A stretch of DNA of 64,000 nucleotides from an uncultured Acidobacteriota bacterium (GCA_963756355.1 CAVWOD010000006.1:26933-90932), one strand, 5' to 3'; positions 33,459 through 59,971 are shown, numbered from the stretch's first letter. A program made the numbers and translations. Notes: generated by a model from the sequence alone, not told the origin.

Positions 33459-33492
33459 TTCATTCAGGTACAGCAGAGATTATTTGGCACCT

Positions 33493-46651: not shown

Positions 46652-48571
46652 ATGTTTCTGGAATTCTACGGACTTCACGAGCAGCCTTTCGGGGTTACAC
46701 CCGATCCGCGCTTCTTATATATCAGTTCCACGCACCGGGAAGCCTTGTCCTCGCTTTATTACGGCCTGGAAACCTCACGGGGATTTCTGACTTTGATCGC
46801 TCCCCCGGGGATGGGGAAGACAACGCTGCTCTTCCACCTTCTGGAACGGCTGCGCAGCACGGCGCACACCGCTTTCCTGTTCCAGACGCAGTGTGATTCC
46901 CGCGAACTGTTCCGCTATTTGCTCTCCGACCTGGGGATCGATGCTGGGGATCAGAATCTGGCGCGCATGCACGAGAAATTGAACGAAGTGCTGATCAATG
47001 ACGCGCGCGCCGGGAAGCGATTTATTCTGGTGATCGACGAGGCGCAGAACCTGGAAGACTCGGTTCTGGAAACGGTTCGTTTGCTTTCCGATTTCGAAAC
47101 GCCGCAAGCGAAACTGATGCAGATCGTGCTGGCCGGGCAGCCGCAACTGGCGGACAAACTGACCCGTCCCGGCCTGGCGCAACTACGGCAACGCATATCG
47201 ATCGTCAGCCGCCTGGAACCGTTCACGCCGGCCGAAACGGTGATGTATATCGACCACCGTTTGGCTGTGGCGGGGCACAATGGAGATCCGATCTTCACCT
47301 ACGACGCTTTGGCGCTGATCGCGGTGCAGAGCGGAGGGATCCCGAGAAACATCAATAATATGTGCTTCAATGCGATGTCACTGGGATTTGCCAAAGGGCA
47401 AAGGAAGATCGATGCAGCAACCGTTCGAGAAATTCTGTCCGATTTGAACCTGGATCTGCTCGGCTCGTTACGGGATGCAGCTCGCTACGTGACTCCTATC
47501 TCCTCTTCTGCCGCCGAATCAAATTGGAAATCCGATGTGGTTGACCGGGAAGTGCAGGCAGCGGCACGGGCGGTGCGCGAGCTTCGCACATCTCCTTCGA
47601 CTGAACTTCCGGCCGCGGACCGGCACCGGGGCCAATCGAATCAGCGCGAGGGAGAGCGAAATCATCGAGAGCGTATGGAGTCTGCGCGAGCGACAATGGG
47701 CCCAGTAGAGATGCCCAACCCGGCCGAAAATATTCCAGTCGAAGAAGTGCAAATGGACACCGATTCGAAGGTGGAAACGGACCGGGATTCACGGAACAAA
47801 TCCGCGGTCGAACTCTCTGAGATCGAGAGATCTGCTCCGGAGGCGAAAGAATTCCGGGTCAATTTAAAGAAGCAGGAGGCGTCTCGCCCAGAACAGCAGA
47901 GGAACGAGAGCGAGGCAGCGCTGCCGGCGGTTTCCGGGGAACCCGCAAGCACCCCTGCTCAATCGGAAGCGGTGAAGCGAGGGCACAAAGAAACCGCTGA
48001 ACAGAGCGTGGAGAAAAAATGGAAGCAAGCGAGCGGTGGCGAAAAGGAATCGCACGCTTCCCTGCCACAAATGGGCGTAGCTGCCATGGAAAAAGTTCAG
48101 CCGGCAATGCAGAATCCTTCCGCGTCCATTATTCAGAGAAGCGGGCAGGTGTGGCGGAGAATCTTTCGCAAAGGCGCTTTTTCCTACGGCTTGGTGCTGT
48201 TACTGGGCCTGGCCTTCCTGTGGCCGAACCGGCACCTCACTGCTGTTCGCGCGACACCGGCGATTGAGCCGCAGAAATCGGTGCAGGAACCCGAAGTGAA
48301 GACGCCTTTAGCTGCGGACTCTGCGGCTGCCAAACCAGCCGACAAGGCGCCGGTGACCATCGTGGTCCAGGCCGATGAAACGCTTTCGAATCTCGCTCAG
48401 AAGCACATCGGAACCTACAATGAGAAAGCGTTAGCGGAGATCCAAGCGCTTAATCCCGCAATCAAAGATCCGAATTTGATCGTGGTCGGACAGAAGATTC
48501 AAATGCCCCATGCGGCCCGCGAGACCAACGACCCCAACACTTCGGCTACCGACCAGCAAGTTCCTCGCTAA
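46652..48571 (+). CDS. ExeA/GspA-like AAA+ ATPase, disordered linker, single TM helix, C-terminal LysM domain
   Basis: Walker A APPGMGKTT and Walker B FILVIDEAQNL. An acidic low-complexity stretch of about 230 aa. TM segment AFSYGLVLLLGLAFLW. LysM-like VTIVVQADETLSNLAQKHIGTYNEKALAEIQALNPAIKDPNLIVVGQKIQMP. Confidence 0.75.
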   Translation: MFLEFYGLHEQPFGVTPDPRFLYISSTHREALSSLYYGLETSRGFLTLIAPPGMGKTTLLFHLLERLRSTAHTAFLFQTQCDSRELFRYLLSDLGIDAGDQNLARMHEKLNEVLINDARAGKRFILVIDEAQNLEDSVLETVRLLSDFETPQAKLMQIVLAGQPQLADKLTRPGLAQLRQRISIVSRLEPFTPAETVMYIDHRLAVAGHNGDPIFTYDALALIAVQSGGIPRNINNMCFNAMSLGFAKGQRKIDAATVREILSDLNLDLLGSLRDAARYVTPISSSAAESNWKSDVVDREVQAAARAVRELRTSPSTELPAADRHRGQSNQREGERNHRERMESARATMGPVEMPNPAENIPVEEVQMDTDSKVETDRDSRNKSAVELSEIERSAPEAKEFRVNLKKQEASRPEQQRNESEAALPAVSGEPASTPAQSEAVKRGHKETAEQSVEKKWKQASGGEKESHASLPQMGVAAMEKVQPAMQNPSASIIQRSGQVWRRIFRKGAFSYGLVLLLGLAFLWPNRHLTAVRATPAIEPQKSVQEPEVKTPLAADSAAAKPADKAPVTIVVQADETLSNLAQKHIGTYNEKALAEIQALNPAIKDPNLIVVGQKIQMPHAARETNDPNTSATDQQVPR

Positions 48572-48580
48572 GTTCCTGAT

Positions 48581-49465
48581 ATGAGCAAAAACTTCGAACT
48601 CCTACGACAAGCGCAACGAGACAAGGGACTGCTCGACCGGGAATTCTCGGCCGCCGCTTCGAACAGCAAAATGCATGAAGTGTTGCGGCAGGCCAATCGT
48701 GGCCAGGATTTGCTCAATACTTCGGTAGCGGCGAAGCCTTTCCCTCTTGAACAGCCGCAAGCCGTTCCCAGCCGTTTCTCGAGGGAAGAAACGTACAAAT
48801 TGGTTCAGCGAATGTTTCTGGCAAACCGCCAGGCAGCGCCGCAGATGATTGTGTTTTGCGGCGTAGCTGACGAAAGCAAATATGGCTGGATTTGCGCGCG
48901 CTCGGCCGAGCATCTCTCCAGCCAGGTGAAGGGCTCGGTCTGCGTTGTGGATGCGAACCTGCCGCATCCTTCGCTGCACAACTCCTTCAAAGCGGATGGA
49001 TCCAGGGGACTCCGGGAAGCCTATAACGAATCGAAGCCGGCGCAGAATTTCGTTCAACGGATCGGCACTGGAAACTTGTGGCTGCTGCCCGCCGGATCAA
49101 CGGGCGGGAACATCAACCTCCGGACATTCATGACCTCGGAGCGCTTGCGGACGTTACTAGCCGAATTGCGCACGGAATTCGATTATGTGCTGATCCATGC
49201 CGCGCCCTTGGCGGCCGAGCGCGATTTCAGCTTCCTGGCAGCCCAGACGGACGGCGTGATCCTGGTGATGCAGCCAAATAGCACGAGCTCAAAAATGGCG
49301 CTTAAGGCGAAAGACGATTTGCATTGTGCCGGCGCCCGCGTGCTGGGTGTGGTGTTCAACGAACAGCCTTGGAACCTGGCTGAGAAGTTTGCCGAACTGC
49401 GGTCCAAGGCGCTGCACTACGCCATGCAGCGAACCACTTGGCGCAAAACAATATCCAATCGCTAG
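48581..49465 (+). CDS. BY-kinase (CpsD/CapB/Wzc-C) homolog with degenerate Walker A and B motifs
   Basis: Walker A' is retained (VCVVDANLPHPSL). The Walker A position reads FCGVADESKYGW with no GK[ST]. The Walker B position reads YVLIHAAP, where His replaces the expected Asp. There is no C-terminal Tyr cluster. Confidence 0.65.
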   Translation: MSKNFELLRQAQRDKGLLDREFSAAASNSKMHEVLRQANRGQDLLNTSVAAKPFPLEQPQAVPSRFSREETYKLVQRMFLANRQAAPQMIVFCGVADESKYGWICARSAEHLSSQVKGSVCVVDANLPHPSLHNSFKADGSRGLREAYNESKPAQNFVQRIGTGNLWLLPAGSTGGNINLRTFMTSERLRTLLAELRTEFDYVLIHAAPLAAERDFSFLAAQTDGVILVMQPNSTSSKMALKAKDDLHCAGARVLGVVFNEQPWNLAEKFAELRSKALHYAMQRTTWRKTISNR

Positions 49466-50973
49466 AAGCGCTTCTCGTAGCAAACCTCGATACCGATCTA
49501 AATTACAAATCAATAGTACAACTGAGGCATTCCGTGGGTACCGCACGTCGACAATTACTTCCGAACCTGTACAAGCTATTCGAAGTGGCAATCGCGGCTG
49601 CAGCTTTTGTCCTGGCTCTGTTGCCCCAAATAGAGCCAGGCGATGGGATGTCGCTCAGAGCGATTCTCGCGATGCGCGTAAGCATTCAGGAGCTTACGCT
49701 GTTCTGCCTCTTTCTAGTGCTGTGGCACATGATATTCGCGTCGTTTGGGCTGTACGATTCCAAGCGGCTTTCCCGGAAGTGGGAAGAAGTTTTTGAAGTG
49801 CTGGAAGCCACCACGATGGGCGTCGCCATTCTTTTCCTGGCTCGCCAGATGTTCCACCTGCCGTCGCTGACTCTTCCCTTCCTCGCAACTTTCTGGGCTG
49901 TGGATACCGTGACGGTGGTGGTGATCCGCAAGATCGTGCGGGCGGCTCTGGAACGCATCCGGATGAGGGGCCGCAATCTCCGGCACGTCCTGATCGCGGG
50001 GACAAATTCAAGGGCGATCGAGTTTGCCCGCGACATCGAGGCAAATCCGGGGCTGGGTTACCGGATCATCGGATTCGCCGACGAGGACTGGAGCGGAGTA
50101 GCCGATATTGAAAAAGCGGGTTACCAGCTCGTCTGCGCATTGAAGAACTTCCGGGAGTTCTTGCGCGAGAACGTGGTGGATGAAGTGGTGGTGGCGCTGC
50201 CCATGCAATCCCATTACGCCCACGCTTCGGAGATCGGGGCGATTTGCGAAGAGCAAGGCCTGGTGATTCGATTCATCTCGAGCATCGTGAGCCCGAAGCT
50301 GGCGCATACCAGGACCGACGAACTGGCGGGCAATTCCTTCATCATGATTTATCCGCGGACGCCGGAATATTTGTCCCTGTTCGTCAAGCGCGCGTTTGAT
50401 TTCACTCTGTCGTTGATCGGACTGATCGTGCTTCTGCCGGTGTTCCTGGTCGTGGCCATCCTCATCAAGCTCACATCCCCGGGTCCCGTGGTTTTCGCTC
50501 AGAAACGGCTGGGATTCAACAAGCGGATATTCTCGGTCTACAAATTCCGGACCATGGTAATCGACGCCGAAGAGAAATTAGCCGAGATCGACCACTTGAA
50601 TGAAGTCAGCGGACCGGTATTCAAAATCAAGAACGATCCTCGAGTAACCGGGCTTGGAAAATTCTTACGGAAAGCCAGCATTGACGAGCTTCCACAACTT
50701 TTCAACGTCCTGAAAGGCGAAATGAGCCTGGTGGGCCCGCGCCCCCTTCCCGTGCGCGATTACCTTGGATTCCGGCAGGACTGGCAGCGCCGGCGCTTCT
50801 GCGTTCGCCCAGGACTTACGTGTCTTTGGCAGGTGAAAGGCCGGAGCAGCATCCCGTTCGAGGAGTGGATGGCGCTGGATATGCAATACATCGATCACCG
50901 CTCTTTATGGCTCGATTTGCAGATTCTAATCCGGACCATTCCCGCCGTGCTGAAAGGATTGGGAGCCGCCTGA
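49438..50973 (+). CDS. Polyprenyl-phosphate glycosyl-1-phosphate transferase (WbaP/EPS priming sugar transferase)
   Basis: N-terminal TM helices, a central Rossmann-like region (VLIAGTNSRAIEFA) and C-terminal bacterial sugar transferase signature RPGLTCLWQV / DELPQLFNVLKGEMSLVGPRP. The start is uncertain because the ORF overlaps the upstream gene by 28 nt. Confidence 0.85.
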   Translation: MAQNNIQSLEALLVANLDTDLNYKSIVQLRHSVGTARRQLLPNLYKLFEVAIAAAAFVLALLPQIEPGDGMSLRAILAMRVSIQELTLFCLFLVLWHMIFASFGLYDSKRLSRKWEEVFEVLEATTMGVAILFLARQMFHLPSLTLPFLATFWAVDTVTVVVIRKIVRAALERIRMRGRNLRHVLIAGTNSRAIEFARDIEANPGLGYRIIGFADEDWSGVADIEKAGYQLVCALKNFREFLRENVVDEVVVALPMQSHYAHASEIGAICEEQGLVIRFISSIVSPKLAHTRTDELAGNSFIMIYPRTPEYLSLFVKRAFDFTLSLIGLIVLLPVFLVVAILIKLTSPGPVVFAQKRLGFNKRIFSVYKFRTMVIDAEEKLAEIDHLNEVSGPVFKIKNDPRVTGLGKFLRKASIDELPQLFNVLKGEMSLVGPRPLPVRDYLGFRQDWQRRRFCVRPGLTCLWQVKGRSSIPFEEWMALDMQYIDHRSLWLDLQILIRTIPAVLKGLGAA

Positions 50974-51067: not shown

Positions 51068-52471
51068 ATGTCAGCCAAAAACGGAAACGGCAACGGGAGG
51101 GCGGCTGAAGCCCGCTCCACGGCATCCGCGCAAATTGCGCAGCCCGGAGAGCTGGATTTCCTGAGCTGCCTGTTTTGCGCGCTTGGCCAGGAAGGGATCC
51201 GCTACTGCGTTTTGCAGCGCTGGGATGCCCTTCTCGATGAACTGCACACCGACCACGACGTGGACTTGGTGGTCCACCCAAAAGACGCGGGCAAACTGCG
51301 CTTCGTCTGGCAAGCGCTCCTGAAGCGAGGCTACACGCCGATTCATCTGTTGAATCATGAAGTAAACGCCTACGCATTTGTGTTCGCCTGGTTCGAAGAC
51401 CTCGCGATGAGAACCGTGATGGTTGATATCGCCTTCGAACACCGCCAAAGCGGCCTGATTTGGAAATCCGGCGAGGAGCTTCTCGCCGGGCGCCAAATGC
51501 AAGGCAACATGTGGGTGTCTGATCCCGGGGTAGAGCTGGCTTACCTGCTCGTGAAGAAGATGCTGAAAGGATCCTTCAAAGCGTCCCGTGAATTGCGCTA
51601 CCAATTGCTGGTCGGGAGAGTGGGGCGCGAGCGAGCGAAGGAAATTATCACGGAACTATTCGGCGAGGAACGAAGCGAGGCGGTGCTTGAGGGGTGCGAA
51701 AAAGCGAATCTGGGCCCCGTGCTTCGGCCGCTCCGAAAGAGTTTTCTTCTGAAGAGCTACATTCGCAACCCTTTCAACCTGGTTCGCTACGTACTGGCAA
51801 ATGATTTGCGTCTGGCCCGGCGCTGGTTTCAACCGACCGGCTTGACGCTGGCGCTCTTAGGAACTAGTTCTCTGCGGGAAGGCAATGTCTATCAGCGGGT
51901 GGTGGAAGTGCTTACTCCCGCGTTTGGGGAAAGCAACATCCGATGGCGGCAGCGTCCCGCGGTTGCCGGAAATGATCCGGAATCGGTCGAAACCTTTGTC
52001 TACGGACATTCCAAGGGAACTTTGGGATCGAGCATTGGCCTGGTGGCTTGGTTCTGCAACTACTGGGCGCGATATGCATTTCACATTCGGCCGCTGGTCG
52101 TGCGCACTCACCTGGTCGTGCTTGACCGCTATTTCCATGACGGCCTCGTTGACCCCACTTCCGGAAAGCTGAAAGGCCCCGTGTGGATGGCGCGATTGCT
52201 CAGCCGATTCGCTCCTAAACCTGATCTGCTTCTGTTCCTGGGCTCGAAAGAAGAGGCGATGCCTGGAGATGCGAGAGTGGCGGCGGGGAAAGAAAAGCAG
52301 TCAGGGAACGGGAGCTCACGGGAATTTCTGCTGCCCTATCGGAGCGTTCGCCTGGTTGATACCAACTCGAAAATGGATCAGACCGTGCGAGAGGCTTCCC
52401 AATTGTTCATGGAACATCTTGCCCAGCGATTCCAAAACCGGCACGCGCGCTGGATCGGCGTGCAATCCTAA
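51068..52471 (+). CDS. Uncharacterised two-domain protein, paralog A: NTase-like N-half with acidic DVD motif, P-loop-kinase-like C-half with Walker A lost
   Basis: N-half ...HTDHDVDLVVHPKD...VMVDIAFE. C-half aligns to paralog B (RRWFQPTGLTLALLGTSSLREGNVYQ versus LRWKQPTGLSLILLGPDGVGKSTLVS; VVLDRYFHDGLVD versus VIFDRYYYDLLVD). Start is ATG 51068 or TTG 51026. Confidence 0.6.
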   Translation: MSAKNGNGNGRAAEARSTASAQIAQPGELDFLSCLFCALGQEGIRYCVLQRWDALLDELHTDHDVDLVVHPKDAGKLRFVWQALLKRGYTPIHLLNHEVNAYAFVFAWFEDLAMRTVMVDIAFEHRQSGLIWKSGEELLAGRQMQGNMWVSDPGVELAYLLVKKMLKGSFKASRELRYQLLVGRVGRERAKEIITELFGEERSEAVLEGCEKANLGPVLRPLRKSFLLKSYIRNPFNLVRYVLANDLRLARRWFQPTGLTLALLGTSSLREGNVYQRVVEVLTPAFGESNIRWRQRPAVAGNDPESVETFVYGHSKGTLGSSIGLVAWFCNYWARYAFHIRPLVVRTHLVVLDRYFHDGLVDPTSGKLKGPVWMARLLSRFAPKPDLLLFLGSKEEAMPGDARVAAGKEKQSGNGSSREFLLPYRSVRLVDTNSKMDQTVREASQLFMEHLAQRFQNRHARWIGVQS

Positions 52472-52492
52472 ATCAGCAACACAAATACCTGC

Positions 52493-53920
52493 ATGAATGA
52501 ATTTATGAACTTAAACGCCGCTGCTCAAAATGCGAGCATTCCGAGTGGCACGCGAGAGACGATCCGGCTCACTCCCAGCGGTGCGCAGATTTCGCGTCCA
52601 AGCCTGGCGCACTTTGTGCGCTCGCTTTTTATCACGCTCGAGCAGAGGCAAGTTCGCAACTGCGCGATGCAGGGGTGGGAAGCAGTCCTGGATCGAAGCC
52701 AAAAAGAATTTGCAATCGAACTCGCCGTTCATCCGGACGACCGCGCCAAACTGTATTCCGCCTTTGATCTTTTGAGCAAGGACGGATACCGGCTGGTACA
52801 AGAATTGAACTACAGCGCCCGAGTGAGCGCCCTTACTTTCGCCTGGTTCGAAAATCTCTTGCTGAAGACAATTCGAATCGATTTTGTGTTTGAACCTCCC
52901 AAGAACCGGCACAAGGCAAAAAATCTGTGGATCGCCGATCCGTCGCTGGCTTTCGCTGGCACACTCCTGAGTTGCATTGCCAGGGGAGCGGTGAGCCCCC
53001 GGCAGGAACGGCAAATTGACGCCTTCGTCGAGAAACTCGGACGCACGGGCGCCGAAGGAATCGCAGGCGAACTCGTCGGCAGCCGATTGGGGAAACAGAT
53101 CGTCGAAGCGAGCCAAGCGGGACGCCTGGAAGAAGTGCTCACGAAGCTCGGGCCGGCCCTTGCGTGGAGGCAATTTCTGAAGAAGCCTTCACAGGCAGTG
53201 CGTTTTTTCCGGGGCGAAGCAGGACGAAAAATTCTGCGCTGGAAGCAGCCGACTGGCCTTTCCCTGATATTGCTGGGCCCTGATGGGGTGGGAAAAAGCA
53301 CCCTGGTGAGCGGGATGATGACCTCACTGGCCCCCCTTTTCAGCGGCGAGCACGTTTCACATTGGCGTCCGGGCGTGGTGATTCCCATCCGGGATGGGGA
53401 CAAATCAGAGGTCAATCCGCACGATGATCCGCCGCGCAGTGCATTCGTTTCCACCTTGTATTTGCTTGGTTTCTGCCTGGACTTTTGGGTGGGCCACGCG
53501 GTTCGCATTCGCCCTCAACTGACCCAATCTAAATTCGTAATCTTCGACCGATACTATTACGACTTGTTGGTGGACCAGGTGCGCTATCGCTACTCCGGCT
53601 CGGAGTGGCTGCTGAGGTTTCTGTTGCGCTTTATTCCAAAGCGCGAACAAATTGTGCTCATTCTCGACGCCCCGGAAAATGTGATCCTGTCCCGCAAGCA
53701 GCAACTGACACTCGCGGAACTCCAGCGCCAGCGTGTGGCCTACCGAGGCCTTACCAAGACGCTGAACAACGCTCACATCATTGAAACACAGCACGGAATC
53801 GAGCAGGCACTGGCGGCGGCCTGCCATGTGGTAACCGAGCAAATGGGCCAGCGGATCGAGGCCCGGCACGCGGCTTCCTTCGCCACGCGTCCAACTGAAA
53901 TCTCTGGAGGTTCGCTGTGA
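52493..53920 (+). CDS. Uncharacterised two-domain protein, paralog B: NTase-like N-half with acidic motif altered, thymidylate-kinase-like C-half with intact Walker A
   Basis: Walker A LLGPDGVGKST (53275-53301) and a DRY-type motif FDRYYYD. The N-half has AIELAV where paralog A has DVDLVV. It shares FAWFE(D/N)L and (V/I)DxxFE blocks with paralog A. Confidence 0.6.
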   Translation: MNEFMNLNAAAQNASIPSGTRETIRLTPSGAQISRPSLAHFVRSLFITLEQRQVRNCAMQGWEAVLDRSQKEFAIELAVHPDDRAKLYSAFDLLSKDGYRLVQELNYSARVSALTFAWFENLLLKTIRIDFVFEPPKNRHKAKNLWIADPSLAFAGTLLSCIARGAVSPRQERQIDAFVEKLGRTGAEGIAGELVGSRLGKQIVEASQAGRLEEVLTKLGPALAWRQFLKKPSQAVRFFRGEAGRKILRWKQPTGLSLILLGPDGVGKSTLVSGMMTSLAPLFSGEHVSHWRPGVVIPIRDGDKSEVNPHDDPPRSAFVSTLYLLGFCLDFWVGHAVRIRPQLTQSKFVIFDRYYYDLLVDQVRYRYSGSEWLLRFLLRFIPKREQIVLILDAPENVILSRKQQLTLAELQRQRVAYRGLTKTLNNAHIIETQHGIEQALAAACHVVTEQMGQRIEARHAASFATRPTEISGGSL

Positions 53921-55122
53921 ACGAGGTGCTTCTTCGAGCGTTCGCACAGTTGACCGGTAATCCCGACGGTCCCGCGGTACACGGCGGAAGCTGCGCGGCG
54001 GAGAAGGACGCTGTTGGGGCGCCGACCGTGATTTCCACGGATTCCGGGAATAGTACGACACGAGAACTGGCGGATCAGGGGTACACACGCACGCACAAAT
54101 TCGCGGTGCTCCCCTCCCGCAGCGAGCCGCGCTGGCTATTGCCCCTGGGAGACGCGCGCCGGACCCGTGAAGGATTTCGAATCTACACGCCGTATGCCCC
54201 CGTGGCGCGAATCCTGAAGAACGTAGCCGTAACGGTGATCGAAGCGGGTTGGACGGGTTGGTCCAAAAATCAGGTCCTGTTGGCCTCTCGCAAGCCGTTG
54301 CCCATCGAGGATCTGGTCCGCGAGGTGACGGGAGAACGCGACCCGATTTTTGCTTTGTCTCTGGGCGCACCAGGCAAGTACAGGAAATTGACCGTGCAGG
54401 TGATGCGCCCGGGATCAGAGATCCTGGGCTATATCAAATTGCCTCTGACGGAAGCGGCGAGCGGACGAATTCGGCGCGAAGCTTCCGCATTGCAGCGGCT
54501 GTGGAATTACCCTGAATTGCAGCCACACCTTCCCAAAGTGTTGCACACCGGAGAGTGGGAGAGCGGCCACCTCCTGTTTCAAACCGGCGGCCCCGCCGGT
54601 TCCAGCCAAACGGAGTTTAGTCCTATTCACGATGCATTCTTGAAGTCACTTTGGAAGGCTAGGCAGGTGGTGAAGCCGGCTGAGGTAATCATCAAGGACA
54701 CGGCAAACCGCTGGCTAAAGGCTGCGCCTCGATTGAGCGACGAACGGCGCGCGCTGGGAGACGCGGCACTGCAGAAAGCAAGCAGCGTTTTGGCCGGAAG
54801 CAAGATTGCCTGCGGCATTATGCACGGAGACTTCACTCCCTGGAACACGCGGGCCGAGGATGGCCGGCTGTTTGTCTACGACTGGGAAACCATCGAATGG
54901 GAAGCGCCGAACCTGTGGGACGTTTTTCATTTTCATTTGCAGGTGGAAAGCCTGCTCAACCGCAAAGGAAAGAACGGCGCGCAGAACGGCAGATCGTTGG
55001 TGGATCGAGCGTCATTCTGGCTTTATTTGTTGCGATCGATTTCTCAGCACGTGGACGAAGCGGCGCCGGGAAGCTTCGGCGCGGAATTCCGCTTCCAAGT
55101 GCTTGCCCGCGAACTTTCCTAG
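53917..55122 (+). CDS. Aminoglycoside-phosphotransferase/choline-kinase-fold (protein-kinase-like) phosphotransferase
   Basis: GTG start overlaps the upstream stop (GTGA) and GGAGG lies 6 nt upstream. Catalytic loop IMHGDFTPWN, metal-binding VYDWE and a candidate beta3 lysine in YRKLTVQVM. Confidence 0.7.
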   Translation: MNEVLLRAFAQLTGNPDGPAVHGGSCAAEKDAVGAPTVISTDSGNSTTRELADQGYTRTHKFAVLPSRSEPRWLLPLGDARRTREGFRIYTPYAPVARILKNVAVTVIEAGWTGWSKNQVLLASRKPLPIEDLVREVTGERDPIFALSLGAPGKYRKLTVQVMRPGSEILGYIKLPLTEAASGRIRREASALQRLWNYPELQPHLPKVLHTGEWESGHLLFQTGGPAGSSQTEFSPIHDAFLKSLWKARQVVKPAEVIIKDTANRWLKAAPRLSDERRALGDAALQKASSVLAGSKIACGIMHGDFTPWNTRAEDGRLFVYDWETIEWEAPNLWDVFHFHLQVESLLNRKGKNGAQNGRSLVDRASFWLYLLRSISQHVDEAAPGSFGAEFRFQVLARELS

Positions 55123-55137
55123 GACAAAATATTCTTC

Positions 55138-56472
55138 ATGTCTTCTCCATCCACAGAACTGGCCGCCTACACGATCACCGAACGCCTGATCGCCGTCCGA
55201 ACCTCGGCGATCGCGTGGATCGACAAGGTGATTTTTGCGGTTCTCGATCAAGGTTTGATTTCAGGATCGAATTTTGTGATGGGGATACTGCTGGCTCGCT
55301 GGCTTTCGGAAGAGCAGTACGGCGCATACGCACTGGCGTTCTCACTTTTTCTGTTGCTCTCGCAGTTTTACACTTCTCTTCTGCTCGAGCCAATGGCCGT
55401 ATTCGGTGGTTCGATCTACCGGACGCGGCTGCGCGGCTATCTGGGCACGCTGGTTTGGATGCATCTGGGAACAGCGTTTGTGATTTTCCTGGTTCTGGGA
55501 ATTGCGGCTTCGGTGGCGCGCTTTATGCATGCGGGCGCGAATCTTCCCAGCGCACTCCTGGCCGTGACGGTCGCGTCTCCCTGCATTCTGCTTTTCTGGC
55601 TGATGCGGCGCGCTTTTTATCTCGAGCTATCTCCGGCGGCCGCGGTGCTCAGCGCCGTCTTCTATTGCGTGCTGGTGATGGGCGGCCTGTTCATCATCTA
55701 CCGCCATGGTTTCCTTTCCGCTTTCACAGCCTTTCTGCTGATGGCCTTCGCCGCGCTGATGACCAGCGCCTTCTCGATGTTGCGATTGAAGCCGGTGCTT
55801 CAATTGATGCAGCTTTCGCCGAGTCTGCGGGAAAGCTGGAGCGAGCACTGGGCTTACGGCCGCTGGTCGCTTGCTACTGCGGCTCTGCTTTGGCTGCCGT
55901 CCAATTTTTATTTCCCGGTGGTCAGCGCGTCCGCGGGCATGGCCGGCGCCGGGGAATTGAAAGCATTACTGAATCTTGCCTTGCCCATCGGCCACACGGC
56001 GACTGCTCTTTCCCTGCTGTTTCAGCCTTATGCGTCGCGCATCAATCATCAGCATGGTTCTGGTCCTCTTAAGACATTTACCGGGAAAGTCTCGATGCTC
56101 TACGCGGGCGGCGGACTTGCCTATTGGAGCCTGCTGGTGATTTTCCGCGCGCCGATCGTGCATTTTCTCTACGGCGGCCATTACGAAAACCTGGTGGCGC
56201 TGGTTCCCTGGCTGGCGCTCGCTTCCGTGCTGCAAATCTCGCTCGCTGGTCCTTCGATCGGCTTGCGCGCAATGGAGTCACCCGCTTCGGTGTTCGTGGC
56301 ATACGCGGCTTCGGGTGCCGTCGCGGTTCTCGCTGGAATCCCGCTGACATGGAAATTGGGCGTTCAGGGCGTGATCGTCTCGATGATGCTCTCGAGCGTG
56401 GTGGGATTTGCCGTTGCGTTGTTCTTGCTACGCCGCAAGGCTAACGCCCTGGCGATCGCTGCAACTCTATAA
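55138..56472 (+). CDS. Wzx-like oligosaccharide flippase (MOP superfamily)
   Basis: 444 aa with about 12-14 hydrophobic helices. N-terminal LDQGLISGSNFVMGILLARWLSEEQYGAYALAFSL is typical of polysaccharide biosynthesis (PST) flippases. Confidence 0.65.
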   Translation: MSSPSTELAAYTITERLIAVRTSAIAWIDKVIFAVLDQGLISGSNFVMGILLARWLSEEQYGAYALAFSLFLLLSQFYTSLLLEPMAVFGGSIYRTRLRGYLGTLVWMHLGTAFVIFLVLGIAASVARFMHAGANLPSALLAVTVASPCILLFWLMRRAFYLELSPAAAVLSAVFYCVLVMGGLFIIYRHGFLSAFTAFLLMAFAALMTSAFSMLRLKPVLQLMQLSPSLRESWSEHWAYGRWSLATAALLWLPSNFYFPVVSASAGMAGAGELKALLNLALPIGHTATALSLLFQPYASRINHQHGSGPLKTFTGKVSMLYAGGGLAYWSLLVIFRAPIVHFLYGGHYENLVALVPWLALASVLQISLAGPSIGLRAMESPASVFVAYAASGAVAVLAGIPLTWKLGVQGVIVSMMLSSVVGFAVALFLLRRKANALAIAATL

Positions 56473-59216: not shown

Positions 59217-59266
59217 GCCCGTTTCACAGCGTCTCCAGGACAATCAAGGATCGAAGGAGAAACAAA

Positions 59267-59971
59267 ATGAGCTTAGGCGCAATTTTGGGATCATTTGCAA
59301 GGAACCTCGACCACCGATTTGGCATTCAGGCCTTGTTGAACGGCGAACCCAGGCCGCCGATTGGTGGATTCGATTTAAAGGGTGAGAAATTTCTGGACTG
59401 GGGCTTTGTATGCGCTAACTTGCCGCCGGGCCCCAAGCGGGCGCTCGAAATTGGCCCCGGCCGTTCTCCCATCATTCCAGCGATGCTTGCTCTGGGCTAC
59501 GACGTCACCGCAATCGACATCGCCTCCGATCTTTCCAAGCAATTCGCGGGGATCCGCTTTATCAAGGGCGATTTCACGGGTGAGCTGCTGGAGGCAGGGT
59601 TCGAAATGATCGTGGCCTGCTCCACGGTCGAGCACATCGGGCTCTCCGGCCGTTACGGCTCCGCCGAGGATCCGGATGGCGACCTGAAAGCGATGCGCAA
59701 AATTACGGAACTTCTCCATCGGCAGGGATGGTTGTTCCTCACCGTCCCGGTGGGAATTGACGGAGTTCACCGCCCTTTCCACCGCGTCTATGGAAAAAAT
59801 CGGCTGCCGAAGCTGCTCAAGGGATTTGAAGTGGTGAAGTCGCGATTCATGGTGAAGGAACCCTGGGGCCCTTGGCGCTCGTGCGACCGCCCGACCGCGC
59901 TCGATTATCCGGCGAGCGCCCGCCGGTATGCTCTGGGCGAGTTTTTGCTGCGTAAGGAACGAGAGGAATAA
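59267..59971 (+). CDS. Class I SAM-dependent methyltransferase-like protein
   Basis: ATG 59267 is preceded by AAGGAGA. SAM motif I-like ALEIGPGRSPI, followed by VTAIDI. The ORF-track version (58895 start) overlaps the Wzy gene and is probably too long. Confidence 0.6.
   Translation: MSLGAILGSFARNLDHRFGIQALLNGEPRPPIGGFDLKGEKFLDWGFVCANLPPGPKRALEIGPGRSPIIPAMLALGYDVTAIDIASDLSKQFAGIRFIKGDFTGELLEAGFEMIVACSTVEHIGLSGRYGSAEDPDGDLKAMRKITELLHRQGWLFLTVPVGIDGVHRPFHRVYGKNRLPKLLKGFEVVKSRFMVKEPWGPWRSCDRPTALDYPASARRYALGEFLLRKEREE

What the first reader, a model, noticed from the sequence alone, without database searches (positions are those of the whole stretch)
51068..55122. Three-gene kinase-like cassette in the EPS operon: paralogous two-domain proteins with reciprocal motif decay plus an APH/ChoK-fold kinase
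Three tightly packed genes lie between the priming transferase and the Wzx flippase (21-nt gap, then a GTGA overlap). I cannot assign them to any characterised polysaccharide function. Genes A (51068-52471) and B (52493-53920) are clear full-length paralogs. Shared blocks include FAWFE(D/N)L, (V/I)D..FE, QPTGL(T/S)L.LLG and V(V/I).DRY(F/Y).D.LVD. Each pairs an N-terminal half resembling a minimal nucleotidyltransferase (pattern h-D-h-D-L-h-V ... h-D-h-h-F-E) with a C-terminal half resembling a thymidylate-kinase-type P-loop kinase. The catalytic signatures have decayed in opposite directions. A keeps DVDLVV but has GTSSLREGN where B has the Walker A GPDGVGKST. B keeps the Walker A but reads AIELAV at the acidic motif. 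This suggests subfunctionalisation, possibly into an obligate heteromer with one active site of each type. Gene C is a protein-kinase-like-fold small-molecule kinase (HGDFTPWN, DWE). Together they may form a phosphorylation or nucleotidylylation module that decorates the repeat unit or makes an unusual activated precursor.
Basis: partly seen in the sequence, partly recalled or inferred. Interest (0 to 1): 0.75.

Follow-up and report, generated by a model that had tools for sequence, protein, structure and literature searches.

The report
Split nucleotidyltransferase-kinase pair in polysaccharide operon
Two neighbouring genes in a soil bacterium's slime-polysaccharide operon are duplicates of one two-part enzyme that have each kept a different working half, and with a third kinase and the adjacent flippase they form a widespread, uncharacterised module whose chemistry is unknown.

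Summary
A (51068-52471), B (52493-53920) and C (53917-55122) are tightly packed genes between the priming transferase and a Wzx-like gene. A and B are full-length paralogs (28% identity, E 2e-65).

AlphaFold and Foldseek show a Pol-beta-type nucleotidyltransferase (NTase) domain plus helical bundle, followed by a thymidylate-kinase-fold P-loop domain. C is an APH/choline-kinase-like kinase with its catalytic residues intact.

The reciprocal decay is real and lineage-wide:
- 73 single-copy relatives keep both active sites.
- 13 A-type proteins keep the NTase carboxylates but lose Walker A and the lid.
- 15 B-type proteins keep every kinase residue, but only 5 keep the first NTase Asp.
- The dead halves remain under purifying selection.

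The conserved unit is the domain set, not the three-gene triad. NTase, TMK-like and APH-like domains co-occur in 47 of 65 genome loci across many phyla. They are often fused into one protein, and sometimes fused to the Wzx-like protein encoded next door (55138-56472). An independent split exists in Acidobacteriaceae.

The family has at least 2,400 clusters, named only 'hypothetical' or 'thymidylate kinase'. Its function is inferred only: ATP/NTP-dependent tailoring tied to the lipid-linked repeat unit.

The parts
49438..50973 (+). Priming polyprenyl glycosylphosphotransferase. This is context: the gene immediately upstream of the cassette.
   Evidence: TIGR03025 at 413 bits, above its cut-off. 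The same position is kept in L001, L002 and L075.
51068..52471 (+). Gene A, 467 aa from ATG 51068 (alternative starts TTG 51026 / GTG 51041). It combines an NTase domain with intact catalytic residues and a degenerate TMK-fold pseudokinase domain.
   Evidence: dN/dS against L008 is 0.087 for the N-domain and 0.153 for the K-domain.
51128..51820 (+). A N-terminal domain (aa 21-251): Pol-beta-type NTase core plus helical bundle.
   Evidence: AF2 pLDDT 92.9 and pTM 0.88. Foldseek matches 4o8s/4ok0 at E 3e-5 to 1e-4, then Pol mu, CCA-adding enzymes and OAS.
51257..51274 (+). A DVDLVV motif (D64, D66): the metal-binding DxD of the NTase, on strand beta-2.
   Evidence: Both Asp are conserved in 13/13 A-lineage proteins and in 64-69 of 73 single-copy relatives.
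51416..51439 (+). A VMVDIAFE block containing D120, the predicted third NTase carboxylate.
   Evidence: This Asp is in a column at least 90% conserved family-wide.
51860..51886 (+). A GTSSLREGN, the degenerate remnant of Walker A.
   Evidence: It aligns with GPDGVGKST of B. The P-loop Lys column is K in 6/13 A-lineage proteins and the lid R/K survives in 0/13.
52493..53920 (+). Gene B, 475 aa. It combines an NTase-fold domain with a degenerate active site and an intact TMK-fold P-loop kinase domain.
   Evidence: AF2 pLDDT 88.2. Foldseek matches TMPKs at E about 1e-6 with target TM 0.6-0.72. Pfam Thymidylate_kin scores 25.2 bits, below the 27-bit gathering score. dN/dS is 0.303 for the N-domain and 0.090 for the K-domain.
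52712..52729 (+). B AIELAV, the degenerate NTase motif (first Asp replaced by Ala, second by Glu).
   Evidence: Only 5 of 15 B-lineage proteins keep the first Asp.
53276..53302 (+). B Walker A motif, GPDGVGKST.
   Evidence: Conserved in 15/15 B-lineage proteins and 73/73 single-copy relatives.
53543..53563 (+). B FDRYYYD, a DRY motif of thymidylate-kinase type, followed by the family-specific DLLVDxxRYRYxG.
   Evidence: D352, R353 and Y354 are invariant in alignment A3.
53690..53704 (+). B SRKQQ, the lid R401/K402.
   Evidence: Conserved in 15/15 B-lineage proteins and 70-73 of 73 others, but in 0/13 A-lineage proteins.
53917..55122 (+). Gene C, 401 aa: an APH/choline-kinase-like kinase. Its start is translationally coupled to B through the GTGA overlap.
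   Evidence: Pfam APH scores 17.6 bits for C itself, and most homologs carry PF01636. The family profile hits LicA choline kinase 4r77 over the catalytic loop. dN/dS is 0.05.
54823..54846 (+). C HGDFTPWN, the catalytic loop (Brenner motif) with D305 and N310.
   Evidence: D305 and N310 are invariant in the 50-sequence alignment A4.
54880..54888 (+). C DWE, the Mg-binding Asp322 (equivalent of DFG).
   Evidence: D322, W323 and E324 are invariant in A4. The putative beta-3 Lys K174 and helix-C Glu E188 are also invariant.
55138..56472 (+). Gene D, 444 aa: a divergent MOP/Wzx-like membrane protein and the fourth member of the module.
   Evidence: D itself has no Pfam or NCBIfam hit. It is homologous (E 1e-10 to 1e-95) to proteins that co-locate with the module in 29 of 65 loci. 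It also matches the membrane domains of the fusions D-NT-TMK-C (L024, P0330, P0358), D-NT-TMK (L041, P0372, P0392), D-TMK (L029), D-C (L030, L044) and NT-TMK-D (P0325, P0349). Those fusion domains give weak MurJ, Polysacc_synt or MatE hits.

Best explanation
**What A and B are.** A and B are tandem duplicates of a widespread bifunctional enzyme. That enzyme has a Pol-beta-type nucleotidyltransferase domain, a helical bundle and a thymidylate-kinase-fold P-loop kinase domain. After duplication in a Terriglobia lineage, A lost its kinase site (Walker A and lid) and kept the NTase site. B kept the kinase site, and its NTase site then decayed; in this genome DxD has become AxE. This is domain-level subfunctionalisation. 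The cell now needs A for nucleotidyl transfer and B for phosphoryl transfer. The dead halves persist as folded, selected scaffolds, probably because the TMK-fold domains pair as TMPKs do.

**What they belong to.** Together with C (an APH/choline-kinase-like kinase) and D (the locus's Wzx-like MOP transporter), they form a conserved four-component module. It sits on the cytoplasmic face of Wzx/Wzy polysaccharide pathways.

**Most likely function (inferred, not shown).** The three catalytic domains carry out consecutive ATP/NTP-dependent steps. These are phosphorylation by C, nucleotidyl transfer by A, and a second phosphoryl transfer by B onto a phosphate-bearing or nucleotide-bearing intermediate. 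Together they would install or activate a phosphate-linked substituent on the undecaprenyl-diphosphate-linked repeat unit just before D flips it.

**Shown versus inferred.**
- Shown: the folds, motif states, paralogy, lineage-wide reciprocal decay, selection, co-occurrence and fusions.
- Inferred: catalytic activity, the order of steps, the substrate and the A-B heteromer.
For: - **Paralogy.** A and B align over their full length.
- **Folds.** Both domains were confirmed by AF2 and Foldseek. Pfam matches Thymidylate_kin in 59/76 members and NTP_transf_5 in 7/76.
- **Ancestral state.** Both sites are intact in 73 single-copy relatives, whereas the A-lineage (13 proteins) and B-lineage (15 proteins) decay reciprocally.
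- **Domain conservation.** A orthologs keep the N-domain at 58-88% identity against 25-79% for the kinase domain. B orthologs show the reverse, 33-63% against 54-88%.
- **Single duplication.** The A and B lineages are sister clades in the N-domain tree.
- **Selection.** dN/dS against L008 is 0.087 (A N-domain), 0.153 (A K-domain), 0.303 (B N-domain) and 0.090 (B K-domain), so the dead halves are relaxed but still selected.
- **Synteny.** The order PGT-A-B-C-D-GT4-Wzy-methyltransferase is kept down to about 45% identity.
- **Module conservation.** NT, TMK and C co-occur in 47 of 65 genome loci from many phyla, and 22 of those also have D.
- **Fusions.** Of 141 new representatives, 49 have the architecture NT-TMK-C, and others are fused to D at either end.
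- **Partner domains.** Other fusion partners all act on glycans: GT4, a hexapeptide acyltransferase, a polysaccharide deacetylase and a methyltransferase.
- **Independent parallel.** In Acidobacteriaceae a stand-alone live TMK gene sits next to a C-NT-deadTMK fusion.
- **No separate transferase.** No LicD-, Stealth- or EptA-like transferase is present in the window or in the loci examined in detail.
Against: - There is no biochemical evidence for any activity or substrate.
- Pol-beta-type NTases normally use hydroxyl nucleophiles, so the proposed order of steps is speculative.
- The closest relatives of the TMK-like domain phosphorylate free nucleotides, not glycans.
- Consecutive-step fusions fit a soluble donor-synthesis pathway equally well.
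- Fusion to a flippase could be regulatory rather than catalytic.
- About a quarter of the loci lack a detectable C, so NT-TMK may work without it, although some of these contigs are truncated.
- The A-B heteromer was not modelled because no multimer tool was available.
- Some B orthologs (P0002/P0003 with ELD, P0012-15 with DxD) may still be active NTases, so subfunctionalisation is complete only in part of the clade.
Confidence: 0.5

Rival explanations
1. The module is a soluble donor-synthesis pathway. In this reading C phosphorylates a small molecule or a free sugar, for example at the anomeric position. The NTase converts the phosphate ester to an NDP-linked donor. The TMK-like kinase either regenerates NDP from released NMP, such as the UMP produced by the adjacent priming transferase, or phosphorylates the nucleotide moiety. 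The resulting activated precursor is then used by a neighbouring glycosyltransferase. The logic is like LicA/LicC, AmgK/MurU, or the kinase-NTase-P-loop-kinase order of CoA, PAPS and Campylobacter MeOPN synthesis.
For: - Frequent NT-TMK-C fusions suggest consecutive steps.
- C's only solved sequence relative is the choline kinase LicA.
- The TMK domain keeps the NMP-kinase apparatus: P-loop, DRY and lid.
- NT-TMK is fused to GT4 in CPR and Nanoarchaeota genomes, and a GT4 gene follows the module in several loci.
- A PEP-mutase cluster family is flanked by 'thymidylate kinase' and a PF14907 NTase, hinting at small phosph(on)ate substrates (PMC8942020).
- The pathway analogies themselves come from established knowledge and were not tested here.
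Against: - To my knowledge, known sugar-1-P and phospho-alcohol nucleotidylyltransferases are Rossmann-type, not Pol-beta-type.
- Repeated, independent fusions of the catalytic domains to the Wzx-like membrane protein are hard to explain for a soluble pathway.
- Housekeeping NMP kinases would make a dedicated one redundant.
Confidence: 0.27
2. The module is regulatory rather than biosynthetic. The kinase-like and NTase domains would modify proteins such as the flippase, the degenerate BY-kinase-like protein or the co-polymerase. Alternatively they would sense nucleotide pools and thereby gate flipping or polymerisation. A comparable case is the pseudokinase domain fused to the MOP flippase MviN in mycobacteria.
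For: - The domains are fused to a MOP-family transporter.
- Pseudo-enzyme halves are retained under selection.
- The locus's BY-kinase-like protein looks degenerate by eye.
- The MviN precedent comes from my own knowledge and was not checked here.
Against: - All three active sites are strictly conserved in single-copy members.
- C has the small-molecule-kinase HGDxxxxN/DWE signature, and its closest solved relative is LicA.
- The other fusion partners are glycan-modifying enzymes.
- Reciprocal retention of one live copy of each site argues that both catalytic activities are needed.
Confidence: 0.12
3. There is no functional partition. On this view A is a decaying duplicate on its way to loss, B is simply a thymidylate kinase supplying dTDP-sugar synthesis as public annotations say, and the motif pattern is drift.
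For: - JGI and UniRef name the relatives 'thymidylate kinase' or 'dTMP kinase'.
- TMPK is the best match by both fold and sequence.
Against: - A's N-domain is the most conserved part of either paralog (dN/dS 0.087, catalytic Asp 13/13), and its ORF is intact across 13 orthologs down to 45% identity.
- B scores below the Pfam and NCBIfam TMPK cut-offs: 25.2 against 27 bits, and 23 against 83 bits.
- B is only 17-20% identical to TMPKs, and the kinase domain is usually fused to an NTase domain: all 141 new top representatives but 2 carry both, although a few lineages encode a stand-alone TMK.
- The family carries specific invariant motifs outside the P-loop, DRY and lid, such as HWRP and DPxRYRYxGP.
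- An independent lineage shows the same live/dead partition.
Confidence: 0.05

Closest known systems
Thymidylate kinase (Tmk; PF02223 / TIGR00041)
   Same: The C-terminal half of B has the same fold (Foldseek E about 1e-6, target TM 0.6-0.72). It also has a P-loop, a DRY motif and a basic lid.
   Different: Identity is only 17-20% and scores fall below the curated cut-offs. The domain is usually joined to an N-terminal NTase domain. It has a long insertion after the P-loop helix and family-specific Arg-rich motifs. It is encoded in polysaccharide loci. In A the P-loop and lid are lost.
JHP933 / DUF1814 (AbiEii-type) and PF14907 NTP_transf_5 nucleotidyltransferases
   Same: The N-terminal halves share the Pol-beta NTase core plus a helical bundle. 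4o8s and 4ok0 are the top PDB matches, and 7 of 76 relatives hit PF14907. A has the DxD motif and a third carboxylate.
   Different: Structural similarity is low (TM 0.42-0.49, about 11% identity). Neither A nor B reaches any Pfam threshold. There is no toxin-antitoxin context. The substrate is unknown.
LicA/LicC and AmgK/MurU (an APH-fold kinase paired with a nucleotidyltransferase to make an activated surface-glycan precursor)
   Same: An APH/ChoK-fold kinase is genetically coupled to a nucleotidyltransferase in a cell-surface glycan context. C's only solved sequence relative is LicA.
   Different: To my knowledge, LicC and MurU are Rossmann-type NTases rather than Pol-beta-type. Those systems have no P-loop kinase partner, no fusion to a flippase and no LicD-like transferase equivalent here.
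Kinase, then nucleotidyltransferase, then P-loop kinase logic of CoA (PanK/PPAT/DPCK), PAPS (ATP sulfurylase/APS kinase) and C. jejuni MeOPN (Cj1418/Cj1416/Cj1415) synthesis
   Same: The same set of three activity types is present, ending in a P-loop kinase, and MeOPN decorates a capsule. This comparison rests on my own knowledge and was not tested here.
   Different: The folds of the first kinase and of the NTase differ. There is no sequence relationship. Here the domains are fused to each other and to a Wzx-like protein.
WbdD (kinase plus methyltransferase O-antigen chain terminator) and the LPS core kinases WaaP and KdkA
   Same: These are protein-kinase/APH-like folds that phosphorylate glycan hydroxyls on the cytoplasmic face. 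A C-family member is fused to a methyltransferase (P0210), and a methyltransferase gene is syntenic with the cassette.
   Different: No detectable sequence match was found. WbdD works in ABC-transporter pathways, whereas this locus is Wzx/Wzy-type. WbdD has no NTase or P-loop partner.
Aminoglycoside nucleotidyltransferases (ANT, Pol-beta fold) and phosphotransferases (APH)
   Same: The same two folds each modify sugar hydroxyls with NMP or phosphate.
   Different: Those are resistance enzymes acting on free antibiotics. No close homology was found, and they do not occur as a coupled module.

Membership tests
Thymidylate kinase (PF02223 / TIGR00041) | Score above the curated family cut-off | tested here: not met
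   B scores 25.2 bits against a 27-bit Pfam gathering score, and 23 against 83.25 bits for TIGR00041. A scores 13.3 bits.
Thymidylate kinase (PF02223 / TIGR00041) | P-loop GxxxxGK[ST], DR[YHF] motif and basic lid | tested here: met
   Met in B: GPDGVGKST, FDRYY and SRK. In A only the DRY motif survives, as LDRYF; the P-loop and lid are lost.
Thymidylate kinase (PF02223 / TIGR00041) | TMPK fold | tested here: met
   All but one of the top 50 Foldseek PDB matches for the B model are TMPKs (E 5e-7 to 2e-5, target TM 0.57-0.72; the exception, rank 24, is JHP933 matching the N-terminal half).
Thymidylate kinase (PF02223 / TIGR00041) | dTMP-binding residues and dTMP kinase activity | not testable with these tools
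   This needs a structural superposition with ligand, or an enzyme assay.
Pol-beta-superfamily nucleotidyltransferase (clan of PF14907 NTP_transf_5 / DUF1814) | NTase core fold | tested here: met
   The A N-domain model (pLDDT 92.9) matches 4o8s/4ok0 at E 3e-5 to 1e-4, then Pol mu, CCA-adding enzymes, OAS, GLD-2 and Pol beta.
Pol-beta-superfamily nucleotidyltransferase (clan of PF14907 NTP_transf_5 / DUF1814) | [DE]h[DE]h metal-binding motif plus a third carboxylate | tested here: met
   Met in A: D64, D66 and D120, conserved in 13/13 A-lineage proteins. Not met in B, which has A74, E76 and D130.
Pol-beta-superfamily nucleotidyltransferase (clan of PF14907 NTP_transf_5 / DUF1814) | hG[GS] motif preceding the DxD | tested here: inconclusive
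   The family consensus is L(H/Q)(S/G/R)W(E/D). Gly or Ser is present in many members, but A has QRW and B has QGW.
Pol-beta-superfamily nucleotidyltransferase (clan of PF14907 NTP_transf_5 / DUF1814) | Significant Pfam PF14907 match | tested here: inconclusive
   A and B have no hit at E <= 1. Seven of 76 relatives hit at E <= 0.1, the best at 6.4e-5.
APH / choline-kinase phosphotransferase family (PF01636) | Brenner motif HxDxxxxN and Mg-binding D(W/F)E | tested here: met
   HGDFTPWN at aa 303-310 and DWE at aa 322-324. D305, N310 and D322 are invariant in 50 homologs.
APH / choline-kinase phosphotransferase family (PF01636) | N-lobe ATP-binding Lys and helix-C Glu | tested here: inconclusive
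   K174 and E188 are invariant and lie at the expected spacing.
APH / choline-kinase phosphotransferase family (PF01636) | Score above the Pfam gathering cut-off | tested here: not met
   C itself scores 17.6 against 23.2 bits. Most homologs at 45-50% identity do carry a precomputed PF01636 hit, and the L024 fusion scores 31.6 bits.
MOP-superfamily Wzx flippase (PF01943 / PF13440 / PF03023), for gene D | Sequence match to a MOP family model | tested here: inconclusive
   D itself has no hit. Its homologs in fusion proteins give sub-threshold hits to MurJ (22.8 bits), Polysacc_synt_3 (22.9), Polysacc_synt (22-23) and MatE (18.3). D is the only candidate flippase in the operon.
Domain-level subfunctionalisation after duplication (DDC model) | The ancestor was bifunctional, each duplicate loses a complementary function, and both are retained under selection | tested here: met
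   Single-copy relatives keep both sites. The A and B lineages are sister clades with reciprocal loss. dN/dS is below 1 in all four halves. Loss of activity itself is inferred from the motifs.

The most novel reading that the evidence does not exclude
The NTase, TMK-like kinase, APH-like kinase and Wzx-like transporter together form a previously unrecognised and very widespread pathway. In it, a phosphate placed on the lipid-linked repeat unit is nucleotide-activated in the manner of a ligase (glycan-O-P to glycan-O-P~NMP). The activated phosphate then forms a phosphodiester or pyrophosphate-linked decoration or cross-link. The released NMP is re-phosphorylated on the spot, and the whole process is physically coupled to flipping. 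This would be a new way of building phosphodiester substituents without a soluble activated donor or a LicD/Stealth-type transferase.
Probability: 0.15. Interest if true: 0.85.

Novelty: new variant of a known kind. Interest (0 to 1): 0.62.

Why it matters
**A large unexplained family.** A family with at least 2,400 clusters at 50% identity sits in Wzx/Wzy polysaccharide loci of many phyla. These include Acidobacteriota, Bacteroidota (gut genera among them), Cyanobacteria, Verrucomicrobia, Planctomycetes, Proteobacteria, CPR bacteria and Nanoarchaeota. It is currently annotated as 'thymidylate kinase' or 'hypothetical'.

**Strong functional linkage.** Rosetta-stone fusions tie three catalytic domains and a flippase into one functional unit. 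That points to an unknown ATP/NTP-dependent step in exopolysaccharide or capsule assembly. It could explain phosphate-containing decorations, flippase specificity, or precursor activation.

**A natural experiment.** In this window the two activities of the bifunctional enzyme lie on separate genes. That makes genetic dissection much easier: delete A for the NTase, or B for the kinase. It also gives a clean, replicated example of domain-level subfunctionalisation with retained pseudo-enzyme halves.

**Annotation.** The result flags a systematic mis-annotation in public databases.

Tried and rejected
- **Direct sequence searches** of A, B and C against Pfam, NCBIfam, PDB sequences and PADLOC gave no hit above a curated cut-off and no defence-system hit. 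A defence-island reading was dropped, because the context is a polysaccharide operon in every locus examined in detail.
- **Genome scan with alignment A1** failed because the A-lineage rows destroyed the conserved stretches. It was redone with A3.
- **Single-linkage clustering** of all locus ORFs, meant to find further conserved partners, was uninformative because the fusion proteins merged families. It was replaced by HMM scans for the four domains.
- **Literature searches** for PF14907/NTP_transf_5, 'thymidylate kinase-like' plus polysaccharide, thymidylate kinase plus Wzx, Acidobacteria EPS plus kinase, and flippase-kinase-NTase fusions found no characterisation. The only find was a remark that a PEP-mutase cluster family is flanked by thymidylate kinase and PF14907. 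That paper's supplements were not available.
- **Missing data.** The P0115 (Dasania marina) context look-up failed, and DNA for the P0008 and P0013 contigs was not retrievable.
- **Rejected reading: a genuine Tmk for dTDP-sugar supply.** This fails on sub-threshold scores, the family's usual fusion to an NTase domain, and its family-specific motifs.
- **Rejected reading: A as a dying pseudogene.** A's N-domain has dN/dS 0.087 and fully conserved catalytic residues.

Full report
**1. The observation**

The three ORFs exist exactly as described.
- A runs from ATG 51068 to the stop ending at 52471. Possible earlier starts are TTG 51026 and GTG 51041.
- After a 21-nt gap, B runs from ATG 52493 to the stop ending at 53920.
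- C starts at GTG 53917, inside a GTGA overlap preceded by GGAGG, and ends at 55122.
- The next gene starts 15 nt later, at 55138.

A and B align over their full length at 28% identity, E 2e-65.

The surroundings are one polysaccharide operon. In order it encodes:
- a UpxY-type antiterminator;
- a Wza-like exporter;
- a chain-length determinant;
- an XrtA/PEP-CTERM-type ATPase with a LysM tail;
- a BY-kinase-like protein;
- the priming glycosylphosphotransferase (49438-50973);
- A, B and C;
- a membrane protein (D, 55138-56472);
- a GT4 glycosyltransferase;
- a Wzy-like polymerase;
- a DUF268 methyltransferase;
- a GT2 glycosyltransferase;
- a polysaccharide deacetylase;
- a second GT4.

The closest public sequences are Terriglobia (Acidobacteriota) metagenome-assembled genomes.

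**2. What the proteins are**

No curated family claims A or B.
- B scores 25.2 bits against Pfam Thymidylate_kin (gathering score 27) and 23 bits against TIGR00041 (cut-off 83).
- A scores 13 bits.
- C scores 17.6 bits against APH (gathering score 23.2).

An AlphaFold2 model of B, built on a 76-sequence alignment, is confident (pLDDT 88.2, pTM 0.85). Its C-terminal half matches dozens of solved thymidylate kinases (Foldseek E about 1e-6, target TM 0.6-0.72). Its N-terminal half matches the H. pylori putative nucleotidyltransferase JHP933.

A's N-terminal domain, modelled alone (pLDDT 92.9), gives JHP933/4ok0 as the only matches below E 1e-3. These are followed by Pol mu, CCA-adding enzymes, OAS-like proteins, GLD-2 and Pol beta. 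This is a Pol-beta-superfamily NTase core followed by a helical bundle. In agreement, 7 of 76 relatives hit Pfam NTP_transf_5 (PF14907), the best at 6e-5, and 59 of 76 hit Thymidylate_kin.

C belongs to a large, well-conserved family of about 403 residues, and most of its members carry PF01636.
- K174, E188, D305, N310 and D322 are invariant in 50 homologs.
- The family profile's only solved sequence relative is the choline kinase LicA, aligned over HGDxxxxN...DWE.

**3. The reciprocal decay is real, lineage-wide and ordered**

I aligned 101 full-length family members and scored the catalytic columns.

| Group | n | NTase carboxylates (D74 / D76 / D130, B numbering) | Kinase residues |
|---|---|---|---|
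| Single-copy relatives | 73 | 64 / 69 / 72 | P-loop Lys and DRY in 73; lid R401 in 73 and K402 in 70 |
| A-type proteins | 13 | 13 / 13 / 13 | No intact GxxxxGK[ST]; lid R/K in 0 |
| B-type proteins | 15 | 5 / 8 / 12 | Every kinase residue in 15 |

The ancestral enzyme therefore had both sites.

Domain-wise identity tells the same story. Orthologs of A are 58-88% identical to it in the NTase domain but only 25-79% in the kinase domain. Orthologs of B are 33-63% identical in the NTase domain and 54-88% in the kinase domain.

dN/dS values against the L008 ortholog, where dS is 0.70-0.83 and so not saturated, are:

| Region | dN/dS |
|---|---|
| A NTase domain | 0.087 |
| A kinase domain | 0.153 |
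| B NTase domain | 0.303 |
| B kinase domain | 0.090 |
| C | 0.050 |

The degenerate halves are thus relaxed but still under purifying selection, as expected for retained scaffolds rather than dying sequence.

In a neighbour-joining tree of the NTase domain, the A and B lineages are sister clades, which indicates one duplication.

Deep B-type orthologs (P0012-P0015) still have DxD, while their A-type partners already lack Walker A. A's kinase site was therefore lost first. B's now-redundant NTase site decayed later, and only in some sub-lineages, including this one (AxE).

This is textbook degeneration-complementation at the level of domains. Loss of activity itself is inferred from the motifs, not measured.

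**4. Is the triad conserved as a unit?**

Within the clade, yes. The order PGT-A-B-C-D-GT4-Wzy-methyltransferase is kept in L001 (98% identity), in L008 (73-82%) and in L075 (about 45%). The A/B/C partners also share contigs in several other metagenomes.

Outside the clade, the conserved unit is the domain set rather than three genes. A scan of one genome per species returned 66 loci (65 after dropping L009, which duplicates L002) from many groups:
- Acidobacteriota, Cyanobacteria and Rhodothermia;
- Methylophilaceae, Thiobacillus and Bacteroidota;
- Verrucomicrobia, Planctomycetes and Myxococcales;
- a CPR bacterium and a nanoarchaeon.

I built HMMs for the NTase domain, the TMK domain, the C family and the D family. 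With these, 47 of 65 loci contain NTase + TMK + C within 8 kb, and 22 of those also contain D. Many of the remaining loci are truncated contigs.

The architectures are permuted:

| Architecture | Examples |
|---|---|
| NT-TMK next to C | the commonest form |
| NT-TMK-C in one protein | L004, L015 |
| D-NT-TMK-C in one protein of about 1,360 aa | L024 |
| D-NT-TMK | L041 |
| D-TMK | L029 |
| D-C | L030, L044 |
| NT-TMK-GT4 | L064, L067 |
| NT-TMK-hexapeptide acyltransferase | L027, L040, L070 |

C-family members are also fused to polysaccharide deacetylase or methyltransferase domains.

An exhaustive profile search of 1.84 billion representative proteins found 2,428 clusters at E <= 1e-30 and 5,287 at E <= 1e-10. 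The 141 new top representatives break down as follows:

| Architecture | Count |
|---|---|
| NT-TMK | 84 |
| NT-TMK-C | 49 |
| NT-TMK-D | 2 |
| D-NT-TMK-C | 2 |
| D-NT-TMK | 2 |
| TMK alone | 2 |

**5. The downstream gene belongs to the module**

D (55138-56472) has no Pfam or NCBIfam hit of its own. It is nevertheless clearly homologous (E 1e-10 to 1e-95) to the membrane domains of the fusion proteins and to neighbours of the module in many loci. Those relatives give sub-threshold MurJ, Polysacc_synt and MatE matches. D is the only flippase candidate in the operon.

It is therefore a divergent Wzx-type MOP transporter that co-evolves with the three catalytic domains and is repeatedly fused to them.

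**6. An independent replicate of the split**

Several Acidobacteriaceae and Korobacteraceae genomes (L037, L039, L047, L061) encode a stand-alone, intact TMK domain. Next to it is a C-NTase fusion whose tail is a truncated TMK remnant without Walker A (VVGGDGTLRAE).

These domains are most similar to single-copy relatives of the P0093/P0081/P0106 type, not to the A/B clade, so the partition arose separately. A live NTase has thus kept a dead TMK-fold appendage on two occasions. This suggests the TMK fold is also needed structurally, plausibly for pairing with the live kinase, since TMPKs are dimers (established knowledge).

**7. How it most likely works**

*Shown:*
- three catalytic domain types, each with a conserved active site;
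- one live copy of each retained in this genome (A for the NTase, B for the P-loop kinase, C for the APH-like kinase);
- tight operon packing with translational coupling;
- pervasive fusion of the three domains to each other, to a Wzx-like transporter and to glycan-modifying enzymes;
- no LicD-, Stealth- or EptA-type transferase in the window or in the loci I annotated.

*Inferred:* the domains catalyse consecutive ATP/NTP-dependent steps at the cytoplasmic face of the membrane.

My preferred reading carries about 0.4 for the chemistry and 0.5 for the explanation as a whole. In it the substrate is the undecaprenyl-diphosphate-linked repeat unit made by the upstream priming transferase and the glycosyltransferases. 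C would phosphorylate a glycan hydroxyl. A would transfer an NMP. B would perform a second phosphoryl transfer on a phosphate-bearing or nucleotide-bearing intermediate. The modified unit would then be the substrate of D.

The main rival (about 0.27) is a soluble donor pathway in the style of LicA/LicC, AmgK/MurU, or the CoA/PAPS/MeOPN logic, feeding a neighbouring glycosyltransferase.
- For it: the NMP-kinase character of the TMK domain, the GT4 fusions, and a literature remark that a PEP-mutase cluster family is flanked by 'thymidylate kinase' and a PF14907 NTase (PMC8942020).
- Against it: the flippase fusions, and the Pol-beta rather than Rossmann type of the NTase.

A regulatory role (about 0.12) and 'just a Tmk plus a decaying duplicate' (about 0.05) are less likely, for the reasons given in the rival explanations.

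**8. Comparison with what is known**

By fold, the parts are a thymidylate kinase, a JHP933/NTP_transf_5-like NTase, an APH/choline kinase and a Wzx-type MOP transporter. By membership, none of A, B, C or D passes the curated threshold of its nearest family, and A and B each fail one catalytic-motif test. They are best described as a distinct, unnamed family.

Public names are only 'hypothetical protein', 'thymidylate kinase' or 'dTMP kinase'. My literature searches found no characterisation. Those searches cover open-access full text only, so a description in a subscription journal cannot be excluded.

**9. Verdict**

It is also improved in three ways:
- the conserved unit is a four-component domain set that includes the flippase;
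- the split has an ordered history;
- the split has an independent parallel.

The enzyme folds and the general theme, cytoplasmic tailoring in a Wzx/Wzy locus, are known. The combination, its breadth, its coupling to the flippase and its chemistry are not. I rate it a new variant of a known kind, with interest 0.62.

Noticed in passing
window 48581-49465: The BY-kinase-like ORF matches TIGR01007 and TIGR03018 only weakly. By eye it has a degenerate Walker A (FCGVADESKYGW), a degenerate Walker B (YVLIHAAP) and no C-terminal tyrosine cluster. It may be a pseudo-BY-kinase.
   Followed up: no
window 46652-48571; L001 4158-6079 and 12646-13984: The XrtA/PEP-CTERM-type ATPase carries a long linker and a C-terminal LysM domain. 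In the 98%-identical contig L001, both this gene and gene D are split into two ORFs. These are probably frameshift errors in that long-read assembly rather than biology.
   Followed up: partly
P0008 (JGI sample 3300050821, 2.66-kb contig): This single gene has an N-domain 90% identical to an A-type protein (P0126) and a kinase domain 91% identical to a B-type protein (P0007). It sits between PGT-like and C-like genes. It is either a natural recombinant that re-fused the two live halves or an assembly collapse of the tandem paralogs.
   Followed up: partly
window 33484-37752; L006 15451-17487: A 1,422-aa protein with a calcineurin-like phosphoesterase domain and many Ig-like repeats lies upstream of the operon. 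A different phosphoesterase (PF04185 plus Big_7) sits beside Wzy in the Binataceae locus. A link to a phosphate-bearing polysaccharide is possible but untested.
   Followed up: no
L037 7761-11025, L039, L047, L061, L051, L043: Acidobacteriaceae, Korobacteraceae and a Myxococcales genome encode the module as a stand-alone TMK gene plus a C-NTase fusion with a dead TMK remnant, or as three separate genes. This is an independent split of the same enzyme.
   Followed up: yes
window 59246-59971; L001 16781-17344; L075 10077-10790: A DUF268-type SAM methyltransferase is syntenic with the cassette across the clade. One C-family protein (P0210) is fused to a methyltransferase, which recalls the WbdD kinase-methyltransferase architecture.
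   Followed up: no
L002 18304-19863, L006 12512-13894, L022 10188-12038: A right-handed beta-helix (NosD/pectate-lyase-like) protein recurs near the module in distant phyla. It may be a glycanase or epimerase for the same polymer.
   Followed up: no
literature: PMC8942020: A PEP-mutase gene-cluster family (GCF 540) is reported to be flanked by 'thymidylate kinase' and a PF14907 nucleotidyltransferase. The same domain pair may therefore also occur in phosphonate biosynthesis.
   Followed up: partly
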